From Clostridia bacterium (GTDB lineage: Bacteria; Bacillota; Clostridia; RGIG7378), in NCBI GenBank assembly GCA_017559445.1, contig JAFYSJ010000006.1, positions 380-64,379 on the forward strand: 64,000 nucleotides of DNA, given 5' to 3'. A model generated the notes under the pieces. It did no database searches, was not told the DNA's origin, and saw nothing but the letters and a program-made list of their open reading frames with translations. Each line of letters opens with the position of its first letter. Position 1 is the first letter of the stretch. The translations under genes and the position numbers were made by a program. Below, in pieces: positions 13,352-61,376 of the stretch.

Positions 13352-13705
13352 TTATCGGATAAGACCAAAGCTCACTGTTAAAGCACGATCAACCCTATAC
13401 ATAAGTAGGTTGTCCACGTGACCAACTTTATCTCGTAGCCTTGATTTATCCAATGTTCTAATTTGTTCTGTGAGGATTACAGAATCCTTCTGCAACCCAT
13501 ATTCCAAAGCTCCGATTTCTATATGAGTGGGGAGCTTGGCTTTGTTCATCTGGGATGTAATCGCTGCAGCAATAACCGTAGGGCTAAACTTATTACCTGT
13601 GTCGTTCTGGATAATGAGCACTGGACGGATGCCACCTTGCTCAGAACCCACTACAGGGCTAAGGTCTGCATAAAATATATCGCCTCTCTGAACATCTATT
13701 TGCAT
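13352..13705 (-). CDS. ndoA: type II toxin, MazF/PemK (EndoA-like) mRNA interferase
   Basis: Near-collinear similarity to B. subtilis EndoA ([29 protein letters not shown]...KLPTHIEI). Confidence 0.9.
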
Positions 13706-13762
13706 TTGCGGCTACCTCCGTGTATTTGTTACGGATAGTGTTGCCCCAAATTAGGTAGTTAA

Positions 13763-14014
13763 TCACTTGGTAAACTTGTGGTTAATAAAATCTACGCAAC
13801 TTTGGCAAATCCATTTATCGCCAATGTTATGAAGATTGTCCTCTTTGCCACAAATTGCACATCTGCTCGTAGCAGCTTGGATTGTGATCGTGTTGCCCTG
13901 AAGGTTAATAGATACTGGAGAGTCAGTCTCAAGGCTAAGGGCCTTCCTGAAATTGGCAGGAATAACCACGCGACCTAACTCGTCAATATGGCGAATGTGA
14001 TTGTTATTCTCCAT
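13763..14014 (-). CDS. AbrB/MazE-fold antitoxin with C-terminal C4 zinc ribbon
   Basis: IDELGRVVIPANFRKALSL swapped-hairpin motif; CAICGK...CQSC; 57 nt upstream of toxin. Confidence 0.65.
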   Translation of the reverse strand: MENNNHIRHIDELGRVVIPANFRKALSLETDSPVSINLQGNTITIQAATSRCAICGKEDNLHNIGDKWICQSCVDFINHKFTK

Positions 14015-14050: not shown

Positions 14051-14160
14051 GTATTTGTAAAAAAGGTAAAGTGATAAAGTCCCTTATTTGAGCCTAGTTG
14101 CAATTTTGTAGAGTGAATAGTAAAATAAAGGAACATTTTTGATTTTGAGAGGTGTGCAAA

Positions 14161-14271
14161 ATGTCTGAAAAGGGCAGAAAGAATTTAATTAAAGCAGTTT
14201 GTATCGTCCTGATTATTGGACTTCTTGGTTCATCTCTGCTGGCTGTTTTCTCTATGTTGGGATGGCTTTAA
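14161..14271 (+). CDS. small hydrophobic peptide (36 aa), below ORF-track threshold
   Basis: ATG with GAGAGG RBS; single TM; followed by terminator. Confidence 0.3.
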   Translation: MSEKGRKNLIKAVCIVLIIGLLGSSLLAVFSMLGWL

Positions 14272-14295
14272 TTTAATACTTATTGACATGGACAT

Positions 14296-14335
14296 AACCC
14301 TGAAAGCCTTGAGTTTTCAGGGTTATTTTTTGCCT
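14296..14335 (+). terminator. rho-independent terminator
   Basis: ccctgaaagccttgagttttcaggg hairpin then T-run. Confidence 0.5.
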
Positions 14336-14382
14336 TTTTGACTTATTAACAGCCAATGAGGAAAAGTGTCGTAAAGCATCGG

Positions 14383-14624
14383 AAAAGTTATTGACATAAT
14401 GTAGACAAAACGTCAGTAACTTTTGACGTAAAAGGCCGCAAAGCCTTGTATCTCAAGGGTTTCAGGTTTTTTGACATCTTCACAAATTATTGACACGAAC
14501 ATATTATCGGTTTCTAAAACTTGTCGGACCGAAAGGAGGGGAAAGGCCTGAAACCATGGTATTTCAAGGCTTTCAGCCCATATGGGTAAAAAACCAGTTA
14601 CTGACATTATGTCAATAACTTTTT
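14383..14624. repeat. 202-bp segment bounded by perfect 20-bp inverted repeats with internal hairpin repeats
   Basis: aaaagttattgacataatgt (14383-14402) is the exact reverse complement of 14605-14624; internal copies of the cctgaaa...gccttga motif in both orientations. Confidence 0.6.
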
Positions 14625-14730
14625 TGTCAAGAGGTTTGGGCAAAAAAATTTTTTACAAGGGGTTTTACCTTGCACCAAATTGCCCCTAATATTATAATTA
14701 TTAGTACCTATGGAAAGCTTTGGAGGACAA

Positions 14731-15374
14731 GCATGTTTATTACATTTGAAGGCCCAGATGGTTCGGGCAAATCCACACAGATTCGCAGACTTAAGGAGTA
14801 TCTTGAGCAGCAGGGATGCCAGGTTTTAGTCACAAATGAGCCAGGTGATACAGCCATAGGTGCACAGATTAGAGATTTGTTACTTAATCCAATTTACAAG
14901 GGCATAACACCAGAGACAGAGGCGCTCTTGTATGCCGCAGATAGAGCACAGCACGTGCGTCAGGTTGTTAAGCCAGCTCTTGCAGAGGGTAAGGTTGTTA
15001 TTTGCGACAGATATATCGATTCCACTATTGCCTACCAGTATTTTGGTCGTCAGCTTTCCGGCGAGTTCATGGGCACAATTACAAAGTATGCTATCGACGG
15101 TCTTATGCCAGAGGCAACAGTTATTTTGGAGCTTAGCCCAGAGGCAGCAGAGAAGAGATACACACAGAGAGCCCAGGCCAAGCAGGCAGATTACGATGTG
15201 CCAGATAGACTTGAGCAGGAGCGCGCTGAGTTTAAGGAGAGAGTTAACCAGGGATTTAAGTACATGGCAGAGAATTATTCCCATAGAATTATTACAATAG
15301 ATGCATCTGGAACTATCGACCAGGTTTGGGATGCTATTTTGGCAGGCCTTAAGGAGAGAGGAGTCCTATGCTAA
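14731..15374 (+). CDS. tmk: thymidylate kinase
   Basis: MFITFEGPDGSGKSTQ P-loop, DRY motif; own -35/-10 (TTGCAC-17-TATAAT at 14671-14698). Confidence 0.9.
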
Positions 15375-16363
15375 AGTTAAGCACATTACAGGGTAGGGAC
15401 AAGATTCGCAGCAGTTTGGCAGGTGCCATGGCTGGCGGCAGGATTCCTCATGCCTTGTTAATTGTGGGACCTAATGGTACGGGCAAAACAACCTTGGCCA
15501 AGGCCATTGCCAACGGAGCCATGTGTATGTCACCCGTCAATGGAGATCCCTGTGGACAATGTATGGCATGTAAGTTAATTGCAGGTGGTATGACCCCTGA
15601 GCTTACATACATTGAGCCAGACGAAAAGGGACTTATTCCAGTTAGTGCAGTTAGACAGGCCATAGACAACATGTACATTAAGCCTGCATATGCATCTCAC
15701 CGAGTTTGTGTCATAGACGATTGTGATGCTATGAACGCACAGGCGCAGAATGCATTGCTTAAGACTTTGGAGGAGCCACCGGCCACAGGCATGTTGATCC
15801 TTACAACGTCCCATCCTGATCTTTTGCTCCCCACTGTTATTTCACGTATTTCCAGATTTGATATAGATAGAGCAGATGAGGAAGAAACTGTGGAGTACAT
15901 TTCCGCAAATTACCCATCCAGCTACAATAGAGCTCACTTCATCCACATGTACACAGGTGGAGCCAGAGGACAGATAGACCAAATTTGCACAGACCCAGAG
16001 TTTATGGAGTTGCGTGAACAGACCATGGCACATTTCACAGCTATGACTTCTGATGCCCTCGATGCAGCATATGGCTTTGCTACTTGGTTCGAAAAGGAGT
16101 CAGACAATGAGGAGCACATTCTCAAAATGCTCATGACACTTTATTCCGACATGTTAATGCTGAGCACAGGACTTGTGAGTCGCATTATTAATAGAGATTA
16201 CCAGGCAAAGCTGACCACACTTATGGAGTTTTTGACGCCAGACCTTTGCATGAAGGCAACCAATGCCATTTCCGAGTATCGCAGGAGACGTAAGTCAGCC
16301 GTTAACCACAAAATGTGCTGCGAGGCACTGGGACTTGATTTGACCATTTCTAAGAGCAAGTAA
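15368..16363 (+). CDS. holB: DNA polymerase III delta' subunit
   Basis: GPNGTGKTT Walker A, zinc module CGQCMACK, SRC-like region; overlaps tmk by 7 nt. Confidence 0.85.
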   Translation: MLKLSTLQGRDKIRSSLAGAMAGGRIPHALLIVGPNGTGKTTLAKAIANGAMCMSPVNGDPCGQCMACKLIAGGMTPELTYIEPDEKGLIPVSAVRQAIDNMYIKPAYASHRVCVIDDCDAMNAQAQNALLKTLEEPPATGMLILTTSHPDLLLPTVISRISRFDIDRADEEETVEYISANYPSSYNRAHFIHMYTGGARGQIDQICTDPEFMELREQTMAHFTAMTSDALDAAYGFATWFEKESDNEEHILKMLMTLYSDMLMLSTGLVSRIINRDYQAKLTTLMEFLTPDLCMKATNAISEYRRRRKSAVNHKMCCEALGLDLTISKSK

Positions 16364-16383
16364 GCTCAACTTTTGGAGGACAT

Positions 16384-17076
16384 ATGATAGAGAAAATTTA
16401 TACCATACCCGTTAACGAAGTTTTTACAGCTAAGCCATGTTCATGTCCATTGTGTGCCATGAAGGAAAGATTTGAGCAGGATCGTATCGATTATGTACTT
16501 GGCCCTGCACTTATGGAACCAGATGTGCGTACAGCAACTAACGAAAAGGGTTTTTGCCCAAGACATTATGCCATGCTCTTTAACAGTCACAAGAACAGCG
16601 TTGGTTTGGGCCTCCTCACAAATACATATATTGAGACTGTGCAGAAAAAGTTGTCCGGAGGTATGCGTCACCGCTCCGATAAGGATTTGGCTGCAGCACT
16701 TGAGAAGATGAATAGCTCTTGCTTCATTTGTGACCAGCTTAACTTCACAATGGACAGATATATTGATGTTATTTACTGGCAGTATGCCAATGACAAGGAT
16801 TTCCGTCAGCTCTTTAGAGAGCAGGATGGATTCTGTTTAGAGCACTTCCGTCAGCTTTGCGCTAGAGCTAAAAAGGGTTTGCCTGGCAAAATGAAGGGTG
16901 AGTTCATGAACGACCTTTGTAATGTGCAGAGCCGCAAGTTGGCTGAGCTCCAGGCAGACGTGGATTGGTTTACCAAGAAGTTTGACTATAGATACAAAGA
17001 TGAGCCTTGGAATAATTCTAAGGATGCAGTTCAGAGATCTATTCAGTTCTTGAAGGGAAAAGTGGAACTTAATTAG
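16384..17076 (+). CDS. conserved cysteine-rich hypothetical protein (possibly DUF6062-like)
   Basis: CSCPLC, CPRH, CFIC, CLEH motifs; its TAG stop is the first TAG of the downstream repeat element. Confidence 0.5.
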   Translation: MIEKIYTIPVNEVFTAKPCSCPLCAMKERFEQDRIDYVLGPALMEPDVRTATNEKGFCPRHYAMLFNSHKNSVGLGLLTNTYIETVQKKLSGGMRHRSDKDLAAALEKMNSSCFICDQLNFTMDRYIDVIYWQYANDKDFRQLFREQDGFCLEHFRQLCARAKKGLPGKMKGEFMNDLCNVQSRKLAELQADVDWFTKKFDYRYKDEPWNNSKDAVQRSIQFLKGKVELN

Positions 17077-20339: not shown

Positions 20340-23069
20340 ATGAAGAAACTGTTATCTTTAATGTTGATTATTACATTGGTAGGAGTTCTTTGCGCTTGTG
20401 AAGAGAATAGGACAACAGGAATTACTCCTACTGCCATACCTACAGCAGAGGTTACTGGTACTCCTGAACCTACAGGGACACCCACAGCCGCACCTACAGA
20501 GGAGCCTACAGTTACTCCCACGGTAGCTCCAACAGAGGAGCCAACAGAAGATCAAACAGAGACTCCTACATCTACTCCAGAGGCAAAACCTACAGTAACG
20601 CCCACACCTAAACCAACGGCAACACCCACGCCAAAACCAACGGTAACACCTACACCAAGGCCTACATCCACCCCAGCACCAACACCTACTCCCGTTAGAA
20701 GTGATTCCGTAGGCCTTGACTATACTGTGAATTCAGATGGTGTTACATGTACAGTTACAGGTATAGGTACATGTACAGATGAGCATCTTGTAATTGGCTC
20801 TAAGATTGATGGATATACAGTTACAGCTATAGGAGAAGGCGCATTCCGTGGAAACAACATTAAGACAGTAACAATTGCAAATACAGTTACCTTTATTGGC
20901 AAACATGCTTTCCGCGAATGCTCTAATTTGACAGCCGCATATCTTCCAGATAGCGTTACAACCATGGAATCAAATGTTTTTGCGTATTCCGAATCCTTAG
21001 AAAGGGTAAACATTCCTAAGGGGTTAAAGGTTATAGCACGTGGAGCATTTAGAGGTACTAAACTAAAAAGCCTTGTTCTTCCAGAGGGATTGGTCGAGAT
21101 TGAGGAAGATGCCTTTAGTGAATGCATGTATGTTACAGAGCTCGTTATACCCAAATCCTTAACCACAATTGGCGAGAGTGCATTCTTGGGGCTTGGAGCA
21201 ACAACACTGGTTATCCCAGCAACTGTAGAACATATTTCATCTGGAGCGTTTGCTGGTTCATATATCGAGAATTTGATTATTCAGGGAGATATAAAGGTTG
21301 CGGAAGGTGCCTTTGCAGAATGTGGATGCTTAAAGAATGTAGTATTCCCCAAGGATATGAGTAAGATTCAGAAGAGCATGTTCGCAGGAAGTGGTCTTGA
21401 AAGTATCACAATTCCCTCCAATATTTTAAGTATCGGTGAATATGCTTTTGCTAGTTGCGATAAATTGGTTAATGTAACAATTCCACAAAACGTTACGGTA
21501 ATTGGAATTGGAGCATTTAAGGCTTGCAGTGCCCTAAAAACAGTAACTATTCCAGGTAGTGTAGAGAATATTCCAGAATCAGCATTCTATGAATGCAAGA
21601 ATTTGGAGAAGGTTGTTATTTCCGAAGGCGTAAAAAACATATTGAAAAACGCTTTTAAGAATTGCCAAAAGCTCGTTTCTGTAACATTTCCCACAAGTCT
21701 TGATCTAATTTATCAGTATGCATTTGAGGGTTGCAATTCTCTAATTAAGGTCGAATTGCATAGCGTAACAACTATTGGCGGTGCAGCATTTAGAAATTGC
21801 AAGTCCTTAACACAGGTTAAGATTACCAAGAGTCTTAAGCAAGTTGGAGATGAGGCATTCTTGAATTGTCCTGCACTTACATACATAAATCTACCACAGG
21901 GATTAGAGTATATTGGAAGTTATTCCTTTAAGAATTGTAGTTCATTACAGAGCATAACAATTCCTAATACTGTAACAGAGATAAAGAAGAACGCTTTTGA
22001 GTTGTGTACATCTTTGAGAAAAGTTTCTATTCCAGCAAGTGTGGGAATAATTCCAGATTTCATGTTTAGGGACTGTGCTAATTTGTCCGAGGTTATTATT
22101 AGTGATGGAGTCACAGGCATTGGCCTAGGTGCTTTCTATGGGTGTTCATCACTTAAGGAGGTTGTAATACCAGAAAGTGCTACAAATCTTTCAGGTGACA
22201 TATTCTGGCTATGTACAAGTTTAGAAAAGGTCACTTTGCCTAATGGAATTGCAGCTATCCCAACATTTACATTTTTTGGATGCTCATCACTGAAGGAATT
22301 TAATTTCCCAACTTCTGCAACAACTATTGAATCAAGAGCATTTGAAGGATGCGATGCCCTTAAGGAAATAGTAATTCCAGAAAGAATAACAAAAATAGAG
22401 AGTGCTGTATTTAGAAATTGCGAGTCTTTAGAAAAAGTGGTTCTCCATAATGGAATTACTGTTATTAGCGAAAGCTTATTCTATGGTTGCAAATCCTTGA
22501 AAGTGGTTAATATACCAAACAGTGTAACTACGATTGAACATGGAGCCTTTGAAGAATGTAGTTCTTTGGAAGAAATCTATATTCCAGAAAGTGTAACATC
22601 CTTTGGAACTAGCGTATTTAGATTTTGCTATTCTCTAAAGAAAGTAAATATCCCTAATGGAATCACTACTATTCCTATGTCAATGTTTGGAAGTTGTAAA
22701 TCCCTTAAGGAAATAGAAATTCCAGAAAGTGTAACATTTATTGATATGGGCGCATTCGGAGGGTGTACGAAGCTGGAAAAGGTTGTTCTTCCTAGCGGAC
22801 TAACACGTCTGAGTACCAGTGTTTTTGATGGATGCAGTTCTCTGAAAAATATTAATATCCCTGAAGGCATTACAGGTATATGGTGGGAGGTATTCCGTGA
22901 TTGTGTTTCCTTGGAGGAAATCTACTTACCAGATAGTGTAAAGACAATAGAAAGATATGCATTTAAGGGATGCACAAAATTAAGGAAGATTCGAATTCCA
23001 GCTACAGCGCAATGGTCTGAGGAAGCATTTGAGGGATGTCCCGATGATTTGGAGATTATAGTGGAGTAA
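20340..23069 (+). CDS. BspA-type leucine-rich-repeat cell-surface lipoprotein (tandem paralog)
   Basis: N-terminus, RBS and linker nearly identical to the 17492 gene; longer LRR array. Confidence 0.85.
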   Translation: MKKLLSLMLIITLVGVLCACEENRTTGITPTAIPTAEVTGTPEPTGTPTAAPTEEPTVTPTVAPTEEPTEDQTETPTSTPEAKPTVTPTPKPTATPTPKPTVTPTPRPTSTPAPTPTPVRSDSVGLDYTVNSDGVTCTVTGIGTCTDEHLVIGSKIDGYTVTAIGEGAFRGNNIKTVTIANTVTFIGKHAFRECSNLTAAYLPDSVTTMESNVFAYSESLERVNIPKGLKVIARGAFRGTKLKSLVLPEGLVEIEEDAFSECMYVTELVIPKSLTTIGESAFLGLGATTLVIPATVEHISSGAFAGSYIENLIIQGDIKVAEGAFAECGCLKNVVFPKDMSKIQKSMFAGSGLESITIPSNILSIGEYAFASCDKLVNVTIPQNVTVIGIGAFKACSALKTVTIPGSVENIPESAFYECKNLEKVVISEGVKNILKNAFKNCQKLVSVTFPTSLDLIYQYAFEGCNSLIKVELHSVTTIGGAAFRNCKSLTQVKITKSLKQVGDEAFLNCPALTYINLPQGLEYIGSYSFKNCSSLQSITIPNTVTEIKKNAFELCTSLRKVSIPASVGIIPDFMFRDCANLSEVIISDGVTGIGLGAFYGCSSLKEVVIPESATNLSGDIFWLCTSLEKVTLPNGIAAIPTFTFFGCSSLKEFNFPTSATTIESRAFEGCDALKEIVIPERITKIESAVFRNCESLEKVVLHNGITVISESLFYGCKSLKVVNIPNSVTTIEHGAFEECSSLEEIYIPESVTSFGTSVFRFCYSLKKVNIPNGITTIPMSMFGSCKSLKEIEIPESVTFIDMGAFGGCTKLEKVVLPSGLTRLSTSVFDGCSSLKNINIPEGITGIWWEVFRDCVSLEEIYLPDSVKTIERYAFKGCTKLRKIRIPATAQWSEEAFEGCPDDLEIIVE

Positions 23070-23142
23070 TGCGCTACGTGTGTGAAAAGTGCTACACACG
23101 TGAAATGGCATAGCCATAATAAATCTAGTTCAAACAATCAAA

Positions 23143-23183
23143 AAGGAGAATTTGTGAATTCACAAATTCTCCTTTATTAATTT
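23143..23183. terminator. bidirectional rho-independent terminator
   Basis: Perfect palindrome aaaggagaatttgtgaattcacaaattctccttt flanked by A/T runs between convergent genes. Confidence 0.6.
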
Positions 23184-23331: not shown

Positions 23332-24837
23332 TTACAAATGGAACAACTTATCGTTCTGGTATCTGCCCTCGCATGTTAAATGTACGCCCAACTTTTTGAA
23401 CATGGAGTTGTCGGCGTGGGAGAGGATAACAGTGGAGTGTGCCTCGCAATCTCTAAGCTTGTCCAACTGTTCCATTGCCTTGCGTGCATTCTCGTCAGTT
23501 GCAGCACAGATAGCCAATGCGTGGAGAACCTCGTCCATGTGGAGTCTAGGGTTCTTGCTGCCTAAGTACTTTGTCTTAAGCTCATGGATAGGACGAATAA
23601 CTGTCTCGGACAACAAGTATACCTCATCAGAAATGCCAGCCAAGCGCTTAAGTGCGTTGAGAAGCATGGATGAGCAGGAGCCAAGCAAGTCAGTTGTTTT
23701 GCCACTTACGATTGTACCATCGTGCAGCATAATTGCAGCTGCAGGACCATCGGACTCAGTCTCCTTGTTGAGAGCTGCTGCCACAACAGGTCTGTCATCG
23801 GAAGAAAGGCCAGCCTTCTTCATAATAAGCTCCTGGTTGTAAACCTGCTCTGGGCTAATCTTACCCTTAGCTGCAGAAACAAGAGCTGTATAGTATCTGC
23901 GAATAATTTCCTGTCTAGCGGCTTCTGTTACAGCATCGTTGTCGATAATGCAGTTGCCTGCCATGCTAACGCCCATGTCTGTGGGAGACTTGTATGGGCA
24001 GTAGCCATAAATCTTCTTGAAAATAGCCTGCAAAACAGGATAAATCTCAACGTCTCTGTTGTAGTTAACTGTTGTAACACCATATGCATCAAGGTGATAT
24101 GGGTCGATCATGTTAACGTCGTCCAAATCAGCTGTTGCAGCCTCGTATGCCAAGTTAACTGCGTGTGTCAAAGGAAGGTTCCAAACAGGGAAAGTCTCGA
24201 ACTTAGCATATCCAGCCTGAATACCCATTCTGTGATCATGATAAAGCTGGGACATGCATGTTGCCATCTTGCCGCTACCAGGTCCTGGAGCAGTTACGAT
24301 AACAAGCTCGCGAGATGTCTTGATATATTCGTTCTTGCCGTAGCCCTCTTCGCTAACAATCTTCTCAACGTTGGAGGGGTAACCAGCAATTGTGTAGTGG
24401 AGGTATACGGGAATGCCGCAGCTCTCCAAATATTTCTTAAAGTTCTGTGCACCTTCGTGGGCTTGGTCAAACATAGTCATAACTACGCTACCAACGTAAA
24501 GACCAACGCTACGGAAGGAGTCGATAAGTCTCATAACGTCCTGGTCGTATGTGATACCCAGGTCGCTACGAACCTTGTTACGGTCGATGTCAGATGCAGC
24601 GATTACAATAACAACTTCAGCCTTATCAGCCAACTGTAAAAGCATCTGCAACTTGGAGTCTGGACGGAATCCAGGGAGTACTCTGCTAGCGTGATAGTCG
24701 TCGAAAAGCTTGCCGCCAAGCTCAAGATAAAGCTTGCCGCCAAAGTCGTCAATTCTGCGACGAATATGCTCGCTCTGCATGCTCAGATACTTGTTATTGT
24801 CAAAGCCGATTTTCACGAAAGTACCTCCAAGGTTCAA
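23332..24837 (-). CDS. DUF1846/UPF0371 family protein
   Basis: N-terminal GFDNNKYL..QSEHI..RI..FGGKLYLELGGKLFDDYHASRVLPGF signature. Confidence 0.65.
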   Translation of the reverse strand: MNLGGTFVKIGFDNNKYLSMQSEHIRRRIDDFGGKLYLELGGKLFDDYHASRVLPGFRPDSKLQMLLQLADKAEVVIVIAASDIDRNKVRSDLGITYDQDVMRLIDSFRSVGLYVGSVVMTMFDQAHEGAQNFKKYLESCGIPVYLHYTIAGYPSNVEKIVSEEGYGKNEYIKTSRELVIVTAPGPGSGKMATCMSQLYHDHRMGIQAGYAKFETFPVWNLPLTHAVNLAYEAATADLDDVNMIDPYHLDAYGVTTVNYNRDVEIYPVLQAIFKKIYGYCPYKSPTDMGVSMAGNCIIDNDAVTEAARQEIIRRYYTALVSAAKGKISPEQVYNQELIMKKAGLSSDDRPVVAAALNKETESDGPAAAIMLHDGTIVSGKTTDLLGSCSSMLLNALKRLAGISDEVYLLSETVIRPIHELKTKYLGSKNPRLHMDEVLHALAICAATDENARKAMEQLDKLRDCEAHSTVILSHADNSMFKKLGVHLTCEGRYQNDKLFHL

Positions 24838-51074: not shown

Positions 51075-51142
51075 TTGACTTATTCTAACTCCAGGCCTAT
51101 AATAACAATTGATATATAACATGTGTTATTTAAGGAGTTTCC

Positions 51143-51703
51143 ATGGCACCTAAGGTAAAAATCACAAGAGAAGATATAGTATCAACAGCTTTGGACATTG
51201 TACGCAAGGATGGCGCCCAAGCAGTAAATGCGCGCAGTATAGCAGCTAAGCTTAACTGCTCAACTCAGCCTTTGTTCACCAATTTTAGCTCCATGGAGGA
51301 GTTGGATTTGGCTGTGATTAAGGAGGGAATTGCCCTTATTGAAGAATACATAAAACGCGAAATCCAAAGTGGCCAGTATCCAGAATATAAGGCCAGTGGT
51401 ATGGCATATATTCGTTTTGCCAAGGAAGAGAGGGAACTTTTTAAATACCTGTATATGCGCGACAGCGATGGCAACCACACTAGCGAAGAAAAGGGCAACT
51501 TTAGCAACATGGAGAGCCTTGTTCATAACAACACTGGTTTGGCTGGAGATGGAGCAACAATATTCCACCTTGAAATGTGGGCAGTAGTTCACGGCATAGC
51601 AACCATGTTCGCTACAAATTACTTGGCACTTGATTGGAATCTGGTGGACAAGATGCTTACAGACGTTTATCTGGGCCTTAGAAAGCAGTACGGAATGGAG
51701 TAA
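51143..51703 (+). CDS. TetR/AcrR-family transcriptional regulator
   Basis: N-terminal HTH (AVNARSIAAKLNCSTQPLFTNF). Confidence 0.8.
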   Translation: MAPKVKITREDIVSTALDIVRKDGAQAVNARSIAAKLNCSTQPLFTNFSSMEELDLAVIKEGIALIEEYIKREIQSGQYPEYKASGMAYIRFAKEERELFKYLYMRDSDGNHTSEEKGNFSNMESLVHNNTGLAGDGATIFHLEMWAVVHGIATMFATNYLALDWNLVDKMLTDVYLGLRKQYGME

Positions 51704-61112: not shown

Positions 61113-61376
61113 TTGAAGGTCAAAAATTAGGGGAGTATAATGAAGGTGCCTGGGATGTTCGGTTAACCTAATATTTTGAACCTACACCGAGTAAAAGGGG
61201 ACTTAGGTTTGTGAGGGATGTCGGGCTTCATCATTCGGCCTTATGGTCGGCAGTAGAGGACAGTAACGATGCAACAGAGACCCCACCTAGCATATGCTGG
61301 GTGTCAAAATACGGGACTCGGCATATCCGGGTTTTAAGGATTATGAGGCGGATGGCGGTGGCTGTCCGCTTTTTTG
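61113..61376 (+). ncRNA. candidate small RNA / structured leader (about 230 nt) delimited by promoter and terminator
   Basis: TTGAAG-17-TATAAT (61113-61141); terminator gcggatggcggtggctgtccgc plus T7 (61347-61376); 5' tattttga pairs with 3' tcaaaata; no T-box consensus seen. Confidence 0.3.

What the first reader, a model, noticed from the sequence alone, without database searches (positions are those of the whole stretch)
14161..14700. 202-bp segment bounded by perfect 20-bp inverted repeats upstream of tmk-holB, next to a 36-aa membrane peptide gene
The sequence aaaagttattgacataatgt at 14383-14402 has its exact reverse complement at 14605-14624. The enclosed segment contains TTGACA-like boxes and two further copies (one inverted) of the hairpin motif cctgaaa..gccttga..tttcagg. 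A third copy of that motif forms the terminator of the small ORF just outside the left repeat. Possibilities are a MITE with terminal inverted repeats, a recombinase-invertible promoter switch, or a long structured leader of tmk. No recombinase gene is nearby.
Basis: seen in the sequence. Interest (0 to 1): 0.55.

Follow-up and report, generated by a model that had tools for sequence, protein, structure and literature searches.

The report
Conserved seven-box control region upstream of tmk
The 20-base inverted repeat is real, but it is only the most visible part of a 343-base array of seven copies of one 12-base motif held at exactly fixed distances in every related species, which looks like a docking platform for a DNA-binding regulator and not like a jumping element or a flip-switch.

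Summary
The inverted repeat exists: 14383-14402 pairs with 14604-14623, 20/20, with 201 nt between. The right arm is one base off the finding's coordinates. It is far beyond chance.

The arms are two of seven copies of a 12-nt box, AGTTAYTGACAT, lying between the 36-aa peptide gene and tmk. Five related species of an uncultured Clostridia lineage (Tmk identity down to 62%) carry the same peptide gene, the same boxes and exactly the same box spacings (108, 99 and 124 nt). The spacers between boxes have diverged, one to 36% identity.

It is not a MITE. It is orthologous, occurs once per genome, and has no plasmid or phage relatives.

No inversion was seen. All 19 contigs that span both arms have the same orientation. 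In the other four species only the 16-nt box core is identical between the arms; one strain has two mismatches even there.

My best reading, at about 0.42, is a fixed-geometry multi-operator region for a dimeric helix-turn-helix protein. The invariant 25-bp palindrome has the same sequence type as palindromes that sit next to TetR genes in six unrelated genomes. A promoter-like site carries a box in its spacer.

The main rival is a structured RNA closed by two nested long-range helices, which show concerted changes. The binding protein and any transcripts are unknown.

The parts
14098..14126 (+). Promoter-like site of the small ORF (TTGCAA-17-TAAAAT)
   Evidence: Consensus scan. The TTGCAA block is conserved at the start of alignment A1.
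14161..14271 (+). 36-aa membrane peptide gene: charged N-terminus followed by one hydrophobic helix
   Evidence: Called in assemblies. Conserved in 5 species, with 12 invariant residues. Only a sub-threshold hit to Prli42.
14278..14289 (+). Box a (ACTTATTGACAT), between the stop codon and the terminator
   Evidence: Conserved in win, L018, L021 and L023. The distance a-to-c is 108 nt in all four.
14294..14332 (+). T1: intrinsic terminator of the peptide gene (first copy of the hairpin motif plus T-run)
   Evidence: Terminator scan: 14-bp stem, 5 GC pairs. Compensatory stem changes in L018, L021 and L023.
14341..14352 (+). Box b, degenerate here (ACTTATTAACAG); AGTTACTGACAG in L021 and L030
   Evidence: The distance b-to-c is 45 nt in all sequences that have it.
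14383..14402 (+). Left arm of the 20-nt inverted repeat; contains box c (14386-14397) preceded by a conserved A-run
   Evidence: AAAAAGTTATTGACAT is identical in 6 of 7 sequences.
14410..14421 (-). Box d, in inverse orientation (ACGTCAGTAACT on the + strand)
   Evidence: It changes in concert with box f in L018 and L021.
14434..14472 (+). Hairpin H2 (second copy of the hairpin motif) plus T-run; the most variable part among strains
   Evidence: The T-run is not conserved in L021 or L023.
14479..14507 (+). Promoter-like site P2 (TTCACA-17-TATTAT); box e (14485-14496) fills its spacer
   Evidence: Best promoter match in the region, 10 of 12. The block RTTATTGACAMRAACRTATTNTC is conserved in 9 sequences. 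A usable -35 is present in 5 of 7 species, judged by eye.
14545..14578 (+). Hairpin H3 (third copy of the hairpin motif); a paralogue of H2, 111 nt downstream of it
   Evidence: D1, 80% identity. Some covariation, but not kept as a consensus helix when 9 sequences are used.
14596..14620 (.). 25-bp palindrome made of box f, one central base and box g; the best-conserved block of the element
   Evidence: The core TGTCAATAACTTTTT is invariant in all 10 sequences that carry the element. It is the only TGACA-N3-TGTCA in the window. The same palindrome type lies next to TetR genes in 6 unrelated genomes.
14604..14626 (-). Right arm of the 20-nt inverted repeat (14604-14623) plus the conserved T-run
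14670..14698 (+). tmk promoter-like site (TTGCAC-17-TATAAT), outside the element
   Evidence: Read from the sequence. CCTTGC...ATATAAT is conserved in all relatives. The distance from box g to the ATG varies from 108 to 180 nt.
14733..17076 (+). tmk (14733-15374), holB (15368-16363) and a DUF6062 gene (16384-17076), the downstream operon

Best explanation
The inverted repeat is part of a lineage-specific cis-regulatory platform of fixed geometry. Seven copies of the box AGTTAYTGACAT (five forward, two reverse) are spread over 343 bp between the terminator region of a small membrane-peptide gene and the tmk-holB promoter.

I propose that the boxes are binding sites in double-stranded DNA for one sequence-specific protein, most likely a dimeric helix-turn-helix repressor of the TetR type.

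- The invariant 25-bp palindrome f/g (14596-14620) would be the main operator.
- The c/d pair, 210 bp upstream (20 helical turns), and boxes a, b and e would be auxiliary sites.
- Box e fills the spacer of an internal promoter-like site, P2, which points towards tmk.

Cooperative binding, probably with looping between the c/d and f/g sites, would shut P2 and block readthrough into tmk-holB. tmk would keep its own promoter downstream.

What is shown: the boxes, their conservation, the fixed spacing, and the operator-like nature of the palindrome. What is inferred: that a protein binds at all, which protein, the looping, and the effect on P2.
For: 1. Box columns are 91% identical between species, against 58% for the rest of the element. 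One 32-nt linker is only 36% identical.

2. Boxes a, b and e have no complementary partner yet are conserved. That fits recognition of the box itself.

3. The spacings a-c 108, c-e 99 and e-g 124 nt are identical in every sequence available, and a 1-nt deletion in L023 is offset by a 1-nt insertion. In contrast, the segment from box g to the tmk ATG varies from 108 to 180 nt. Spacers that are free in sequence but fixed in length are what helical phasing of bound proteins predicts. The constraint also covers a-to-c, which lies outside any proposed RNA domain.

4. The pattern TTAYTGACATNATGTCARTAA found 12 loci in 185,579 species genomes. Of the 9 outside this lineage, 6 lie within about 130 bp of the start of a TetR-family gene. 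Two of those six carry a second, near-identical palindrome next to the first (L035 has a shorter, weaker one).

5. Strain L009 changed box c at two positions, to AGTTACTGACATT, which is exactly the box-f variant. This breaks the c:g complementarity but keeps the box consensus.

6. Box e sits between the -35 and -10 of the best promoter match in the region.

7. There is no coding signal: no 3-base periodicity, and the minus-strand ORF has stop codons in L023, L040 and L030.
Against: - No candidate regulator gene is linked to the element. The only TetR-like gene in the window (51143-51703) has a different palindrome of its own. The conserved neighbours are only the peptide gene, tmk, holB and DUF6062.
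- Only f/g has the geometry of a classical dimer operator. In c/d the half-sites are 12 nt apart, and a, b and e are lone half-sites.
- Boxes d and f changed together in two independent lineages, at three paired positions. Plain protein binding does not predict this. It needs base pairing, or conversion between the arms.
- The palindrome was found once per genome, so no regulon is visible.
- Binding, looping and P2 activity are all untested.
Confidence: 0.42

Rival explanations
1. A structured RNA of about 250 nt, either an sRNA or part of a long peptide-tmk intercistronic leader. The 5' and 3' parts close a domain through two nested long-range helices: c:g (about 18 bp) and d:f (13 bp), separated by an 11-nt one-sided bulge. 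The U-run after box g would mark the 3' end. Boxes a, b and e would be competing strands for alternative pairings (attenuation).
For: - RNAalifold recovers c:g plus d:f in the alignment, and single-sequence folds recover them in 6 of 7 sequences.
- d:f shows G-C to A-U changes in L018 and in L021, and a U-A to C-G change in L018. L021 differs from its G-C sister L030 by only 6% in Tmk, so these are two independent events.
- The flank of c:g shows a C-G to G-C change in L023.
- The local alternative hairpins, c:d and f:g, show no covariation and have a C.A mismatch in 5 of 7 sequences.
- MFE is -84.8 kcal/mol, z = -7.4.
- 92.4% of cells are paired; 7 pairs show double changes, a count reached by 11 of 500 shuffles.
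Against: - The helices are almost invariant in sequence, which is unusual for RNA stems.
- Linkers that are free in sequence show no length variation, and the a-to-c distance, outside the RNA domain, is equally fixed.
- No conserved sigma-A promoter lies upstream of box c, and a strong terminator (T1) precedes it.
- P2 lies inside the domain.
- The interior folds differ between species, and H3 is not retained when 9 sequences are used.
- Strain L009 tolerates two mismatches in c:g.
- There is no Rfam match.
- Concerted changes could instead arise from template switching between the repeat arms. L009's double change perfects the local c:d hairpin, which is the signature of that mutational mechanism.
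Confidence: 0.2
2. A recombinase-invertible switch. A site-specific recombinase encoded elsewhere flips 14403-14603, which reverses P2 and exchanges the tight f:g hairpin plus T-run upstream of tmk for a looser one, as in the C. difficile cwpV and flgB switches.
For: - A perfect 20-bp inverted repeat flanks 201 bp in a leader-like region, close to cwpV (21-bp repeats, 195 bp; PMC2784873).
- Recombinases for such switches are often encoded elsewhere in the genome (PMC5903667).
- Concerted evolution of the two arms is expected if they recombine.
- Contig ends from independent assemblies cluster inside the element.
Against: - All 19 contigs that span both arms, from 5 species and about 18 samples, have the same orientation.
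- In the other four species the arms are identical only over the 16-nt box. The bases next to the box, where a crossover region would lie, differ between the arms in L018, L021, L030, L023 and L009.
- The two arms have different internal geometry: a 12-nt gap against a 1-nt gap between their boxes.
- The contig breaks lie at 14435-14465, not at the repeat boundaries where an inversion bubble would break an assembly.
- The downstream genes are essential housekeeping genes with their own promoter, not the usual surface or signalling targets.
- Boxes a and b lie outside the repeats.
Confidence: 0.08
3. Another DNA-level machine uses the box array. It could be an assembly site for a recombination, replication, segregation or nucleoid-organising protein next to the replication genes, or an ancient MITE-like insertion that has been put to use, with its terminal repeats now maintained by selection.
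For: Seven sites in both orientations at rigid spacing over 343 bp resemble initiator, transposase or integrase arm-site arrays more than a simple operator. The size (about 250 bp between the outer repeats) and the terminal plus subterminal repeats are MITE-like.
Against: - There is no GC-skew turn in the window.
- The box is not a DnaA box. No recombinase, transposase or initiator gene appeared among the 21 window ORFs scanned or the genes called in the related loci.
- The element occurs once per genome, and no target-site duplication is visible at the arms.
- Boxes a and b lie outside the putative element.
Confidence: 0.15

Closest known systems
Multi-operator looping regions (lac O1/O2/O3, gal OE/OI, ara O2/I1); from general knowledge
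   Same: One strong palindromic operator plus auxiliary sites 100-210 bp away. The spacer length is constrained while the spacer sequence is free. One site overlaps a promoter. The c-to-f distance is 210 bp, or 20 helical turns.
   Different: There are seven sites, most of them lone half-sites in either orientation. No regulator has been identified. The two repeat arms evolve in concert. Nothing has been tested experimentally.
TetR-family operators (palindromes next to tetR-like genes)
   Same: The f/g palindrome matches TTAYTGACAT-N-ATGTCARTAA, which lies next to TetR_N-domain genes in six unrelated genomes. Two of those six carry a second, near-identical palindrome next to the first; L035 has a shorter, weaker one.
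   Different: No TetR gene lies next to the element in any of the five species. The array is much larger than a typical TetR operator.
Clostridioides difficile cwpV and flgB invertible switches (PMC2784873, PMC5386303, PMC5903667)
   Same: Inverted repeats of about 20 bp flank about 150-200 bp in an upstream untranslated region of a Clostridia genome. Terminator-like hairpins sit at the junctions. No recombinase gene is adjacent.
   Different: No second orientation was seen. Arm identity is limited to the box in the other four species. The downstream genes are housekeeping genes with their own promoter. Further copies of the repeat motif lie outside the segment.
MITEs (miniature inverted-repeat transposable elements)
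   Same: Terminal inverted repeats and a size of about 250 bp.
   Different: Single copy, orthologous in five species, under purifying selection, with no target-site duplication.
Structured RNAs whose 5' and 3' ends pair to close a domain (for example 6S RNA); from general knowledge
   Same: Long-range closing helices with some compensatory changes; strongly negative folding z-score.
   Different: No Rfam match. A real 6S RNA lies elsewhere in the window (61144-61337). The interior is not a conserved rod. The helices are invariant in sequence.

Membership tests
MITE | Terminal inverted repeats | tested here: met
   A 20/20 inverted repeat at 14383-14402 and 14604-14623.
MITE | Multiple dispersed copies in the genome | tested here: not met
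   There is no other copy of the arm (up to 3 mismatches) or of the box (up to 1 mismatch) in 64 kb. The palindrome occurs once per genome in the lineage's representative genomes. In the fetched loci the box is found only at this locus. Complete genomes of the lineage could not be scanned for degenerate copies.
MITE | Presence/absence polymorphism: the orthologous site is empty in relatives | tested here: not met
   Present at the same site, with identical architecture, in all five species.
MITE | Target-site duplication flanking the repeats | tested here: not met
   The flanks...GCATCGG and TTGTCAAG..., share no direct repeat.
Invertible promoter switch (inverton) | Short inverted repeats flanking about 100-750 bp of intergenic DNA that contains a promoter or terminator | tested here: met
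   20-bp repeats 201 nt apart, with the P2 promoter-like site inside.
Invertible promoter switch (inverton) | Both orientations present in populations | tested here: not met
   19 of 19 spanning contigs, from about 18 samples, have one orientation. Assemblies report only the majority form, and raw reads could not be examined.
Invertible promoter switch (inverton) | Identical crossover region in both arms | tested here: inconclusive
   Identity runs for 20-21 nt in this species, only 16 nt (the box) in four other species, and 8 nt in strain L009.
Invertible promoter switch (inverton) | A cognate site-specific recombinase | not tested
   None appeared among the 21 window ORFs scanned or the genes called in the related loci. 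Most of the window's ORFs and the rest of the genome were not examined.
TetR-type operator | Palindrome of about 15-30 bp with two inverted half-sites | tested here: met
   A 12+1+12 palindrome at 14596-14620, invariant across species.
TetR-type operator | Located at the promoter of a tetR-like gene or its divergent target | tested here: not met
   There is no TetR gene within 3 kb in any species. The window's TetR-like gene at 51143 has a different palindrome. The same palindrome type does lie next to TetR genes in six other genomes.
TetR-type operator | Bound by the regulator | not testable with these tools
   Needs EMSA, DAP-seq or ChIP.
Known structured RNA family or riboswitch leader | Match to a curated covariance model | tested here: not met
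   Nothing reaches the gathering score. The best permissive hits have E of 0.8 or more.
Known structured RNA family or riboswitch leader | Helices supported by compensatory changes | tested here: inconclusive
   7 of 58 pairs show double changes, mainly in d:f and H3. There are few species, the helices are otherwise invariant, and conversion between the repeat arms is an alternative explanation.
Intrinsic terminator (T1, 14294-14332) | GC-rich stem-loop followed by a U-run directly after a gene, with the stem kept by covariation | tested here: met
   The stem differs in sequence but stays paired in L018, L021 and L023.
Type I toxin-antitoxin (small hydrophobic peptide plus complementary sRNA) | Hydrophobic peptide under 60 aa, and an adjacent RNA complementary to its mRNA | tested here: inconclusive
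   The peptide fits. Boxes d and g are complementary to box a in the 3' untranslated region over 10-12 nt. There is no evidence for an antitoxin transcript or for toxicity.

The most novel reading that the evidence does not exclude
The seven-box array is not an ordinary operator. It would be a new kind of fixed-geometry element in which two nested long-range complementary pairs (c:g and d:f) are functionally coupled. That could be a previously undescribed structured RNA of about 250 nt, built from one reused 12-nt word, controlling the replication genes tmk-holB. Or it could be a DNA site whose two arms are synapsed by an unknown protein machine, linked to the conserved 36-aa membrane peptide.
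Probability: 0.2. Interest if true: 0.65.

Novelty: new variant of a known kind. Interest (0 to 1): 0.45.

Why it matters
The case shows how a textbook-looking 'inverted repeats around 200 bp' signal can be neither a transposon nor a flip-switch.

The element is strongly constrained. It spans 343 bp, has seven boxes, and shows no net length change across species whose thymidylate kinases are only 62% identical. It sits directly upstream of essential DNA-replication genes in an uncultured gut-associated Clostridia lineage.

Identifying the binder, or the RNA, would reveal how this lineage controls tmk-holB and what the conserved 36-aa membrane peptide does.

The d/f co-variation, together with L009's double change that perfects a hairpin, is also a clean natural example for separating selection on base pairing from template-switch conversion.

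Tried and rejected
- **Coding explanations.** A 76-aa minus-strand ORF (14413-14643) looks conserved between the window and L018. It has stop codons in L023, L040 and L030, similarity is confined to the boxes, and there is no 3-base periodicity. No plus-strand ORF is conserved either.
- **Known RNA families.** Rfam finds nothing at the gathering or the permissive threshold.
- **Replication origin or terminus.** GC skew is positive across the whole window, and the box is not a DnaA box.
- **Plasmid or phage relatives.** There are no blastn hits. Eleven IMG/VR hits to the palindrome all lie inside one phage coding sequence, a coincidence of translation.
- **Metagenome scan for the palindrome.** It gave one unrelated hit.
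- **DUF6062 as the linked binder.** The family is widespread in Clostridia (835 hits) and is not linked to tmk elsewhere.
- **The window's TetR-like gene (51143).** It has a different palindrome of its own.
- **More distant Tmk relatives (about 50% identity).** They lack both the peptide gene and the long spacer, so the set of species could not be widened.
- **One giant 250-nt palindrome.** Cross-pairing of H2 with H3 is predicted only in this species.
- **A conserved sRNA from P2.** Only the f:g hairpin survives as a consensus helix with 9 sequences.
- **Boxes as sigma-A -35 elements of several promoters.** No -10 element lies at the right distance from any of them, judged by eye.

Full report
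**1. The observation**

The sequence AAAAGTTATTGACATAATGT at 14383-14402 has its exact reverse complement at 14604-14623. The finding placed the right arm one base too far, so the enclosed segment is 201 nt. With up to three mismatches allowed, the two arms are the only matches in the 64-kb window, against 0.01 expected from shuffles. Only one other perfect inverted repeat of at least 16 nt within 600 nt exists in the window.

The other parts of the observation also hold:
- The three hairpin-motif copies are real (14297-14323, 14436-14466, 14545-14578).
- The first copy, with its T-run, is a true terminator. Its stem differs in relatives but stays paired.
- The 36-aa ORF (14161-14271) is a real gene. 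It was called in assemblies and is conserved in five species.
- tmk starts at the ATG at 14733 (213 aa).

**2. What the repeat is part of**

The arms are copies of a 12-nt box, AGTTAYTGACAT. With one mismatch allowed, the box occurs five times in the window, all between 14278 and 14620, against 0.95 expected. With the degenerate copies there are seven:

| Box | Coordinates | Strand |
|---|---|---|
| a | 14278-14289 | + |
| b | 14341-14352 | + |
| c | 14386-14397 | + |
| d | 14410-14421 | - |
| e | 14485-14496 | + |
| f | 14596-14607 | + |
| g | 14609-14620 | - |

Boxes f and g form a 25-bp palindrome followed by a T-run. The right arm is box g plus flanking bases.

**3. Relatives**

The organism belongs to an uncultured 'Clostridia bacterium' lineage with few relatives. 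I collected three groups of loci:
- contigs that encode the identical Tmk or the identical peptide (L001-L015; 13 samples);
- loci from relatives with 95, 81, 80, 74-75 and 62% Tmk identity (L016, L040, L018-20/L026, L021/L022/L030, L023-25);
- two relatives at about 50% identity, which lack the arrangement.

Every locus of the lineage that reaches far enough has the small peptide gene, a spacer of 457-470 nt, and tmk-holB-DUF6062. The genes upstream of the peptide differ in L023.

In the alignments (A1, A2) the boxes are the conserved islands. Pairwise identity is 91% in box columns and 58% elsewhere, and it falls to 36% in the linker between box e and hairpin H3.

The spacing is rigid. The distances a-c 108, c-e 99 and e-g 124 nt are the same in every sequence. 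A 1-nt loss between c and d in L023 is offset by a 1-nt gain between d and e. By contrast, the stretch from box g to the tmk start varies from 108 to 180 nt.

**4. Readings that fail**

*MITE.* The element is orthologous, under selection, and single-copy. A scan of one genome for each of 185,579 species with the palindrome pattern hit each lineage genome once. The box occurs nowhere else in the window or in the fetched loci. There are no plasmid or phage relatives.

*Coding sequence.* A 76-aa minus-strand ORF is open in some species only because the boxes lack stop codons. It is interrupted in L023, L040 and L030, and there is no codon periodicity.

*Known RNA.* There is no Rfam match.

*Replication origin.* GC skew does not turn anywhere in the window.

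**5. Invertible switch**

The anatomy resembles the C. difficile cwpV switch: 21-bp inverted repeats 195 bp apart, with a terminator forming at a junction (PMC2784873). Recombinases for such switches need not be adjacent (PMC5903667). Four observations count against it here:
- All 19 contigs that span both arms, from five species, have the same orientation.
- The perfect 20-21-nt repeat is peculiar to this species. In four other species the arms are identical only over AAAAAGTTATTGACAT, and strain L009 has two mismatches inside it.
- The arms have different internal geometry, with box gaps of 12 nt and 1 nt.
- Assembly breaks cluster at 14435-14465, not at the repeat boundaries.

Raw reads could not be examined, so a rare inverted form is not excluded.

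**6. DNA-binding sites or RNA**

*For an RNA.* RNAalifold gives two nested long-range helices, c:g and d:f, with an 11-nt one-sided bulge, closing about 174 nt. Boxes d and f changed together: G-C to A-U in L018 and again in L021, and U-A to C-G in L018. L021's sister L030, with 94% Tmk identity, keeps G-C, so these are two independent events. The local hairpins c:d and f:g show no covariation and carry a C.A mismatch in five of seven sequences. The fold is far more stable than shuffled sequence (z = -7.4).

*Against an RNA, and for protein recognition of DNA:*
- The helices are otherwise invariant in sequence.
- Unpaired boxes a, b and e are conserved.
- Sequence-free linkers never change length, and this includes the a-c interval, which lies outside the putative RNA domain.
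- No conserved promoter precedes box c, and a strong terminator does.
- The interior folds differ between species.
- Strain L009 altered box c at two positions at once. This breaks c:g but yields exactly the box-f variant and perfects the local c:d hairpin. That is the signature of template-switch conversion between repeat copies, which could also account for the d/f co-variation without any selection on pairing.

*The palindrome itself.* Its sequence type is informative. Of the nine matches outside the lineage, six lie within about 130 bp of the start of a TetR-family gene. Two of those six carry a second, near-identical palindrome next to the first (L035 has a shorter, weaker one).

**7. Proposed mechanism (inferred)**

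A dimeric helix-turn-helix protein of TetR type binds the f/g palindrome as its main operator and the other boxes as auxiliary sites. Boxes c and f are 210 bp apart, which is 20 helical turns. Box e fills the spacer of the best promoter-like site in the region (TTCACA-17-TATTAT, 14479-14507), whose -10 region and box are conserved in nine sequences.

Cooperative binding, probably with looping, would silence this promoter and block readthrough towards tmk-holB. tmk keeps its own conserved promoter at 14670-14698.

Weak points of this model:
- No regulator gene is linked to the element. The window's TetR-like gene at 51143 has a different palindrome, and DUF6062 is widespread and not linked to tmk elsewhere.
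- Only f/g has classical operator geometry.
- Nothing is known about transcripts.

**8. Verdict**

The element is a conserved, lineage-specific array of seven boxes at fixed geometry. I rate the readings as follows:

| Reading | Confidence |
|---|---|
| Multi-operator regulatory region | about 0.42 |
| Structured RNA | about 0.2 |
| Another DNA-level machine | about 0.15 |
| Invertible switch | about 0.08 |

It is a new variant of a known kind and of moderate interest.

Noticed in passing
window 23142-23175: A 34-nt perfect palindrome with no loop (AAAGGAGAATTTGTGAA|TTCACAAATTCTCCTTT) lies between the ORFs 20340-23069 (+) and 23332-24837 (-). Its centre, TTGTGAA/TTCACAA, resembles Rex-type half-sites. 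It is the only other perfect inverted repeat of at least 16 nt in the window.
   Followed up: no
window 14161-14271: The conserved 36-aa peptide (consensus MS[DE]K.RK..[IV]K..C..L, then one hydrophobic helix) gives a sub-threshold hit to NCBIfam Prli42, the stressosome-associated membrane miniprotein (E = 0.0025; 17.5 bits against a cutoff of 27.5). There is no Pfam family.
   Followed up: partly
window 14279-14629 (loci L005-L009, L015, L016, L022, L040): Contig ends from independent assemblies cluster inside the element. Two contigs start at box a (14279, 14285). Five start in hairpin H2 (about 14435-14465). One ends just after box g (14629). L005 carries unrelated GC-rich DNA to the left of about 14313, inside the T1 hairpin, and is probably a chimera. 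The cause is unknown; strain variation in H2 or hairpin-related loss of coverage are possibilities.
   Followed up: partly
window 16384-17076: holB is followed by a DUF6062 gene with two CxxC...CxxH modules, not by the ricT/yabA-type genes seen in other Firmicutes (L042, for example, has PSP1 after holB). DUF6062 is widespread in Clostridia (835 hits) and is not linked to tmk in a C. thermosuccinogenes-like contig.
   Followed up: partly
window 13352-14014 (minus strand): A mazEF-type toxin-antitoxin pair (an AbrB/MazE-like protein of 83 aa and a PemK/MazF protein of 117 aa) lies immediately upstream and divergent from the peptide gene. It is present in the window species, L018, L021 and L030 but absent at this position in L023, so it is not part of the conserved element.
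   Followed up: partly
window 51117-51703: A TetR-like gene (186 aa, TetR_C_33) has its own palindrome, ATAACATGTGTTAT, just upstream of its ribosome-binding site. This palindrome is unrelated to the box studied here.
   Followed up: yes
window 61144-61337: A 6S RNA gene (Rfam RF00013, 52.3 bits), with a tRNA at 34161-34234 on the minus strand.
   Followed up: no
L032 973-1040, L034 1195-1245, L035 5225-5275: In two Alphaproteobacteria and one Pseudomonadales genome the same palindrome type lies directly upstream of a TetR-family gene. L032 and L034 each carry a second, near-identical palindrome beside it; L035 has a shorter, weaker one. This suggests a widespread TetR operator class with the half-site TTAYTGACA.
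   Followed up: partly
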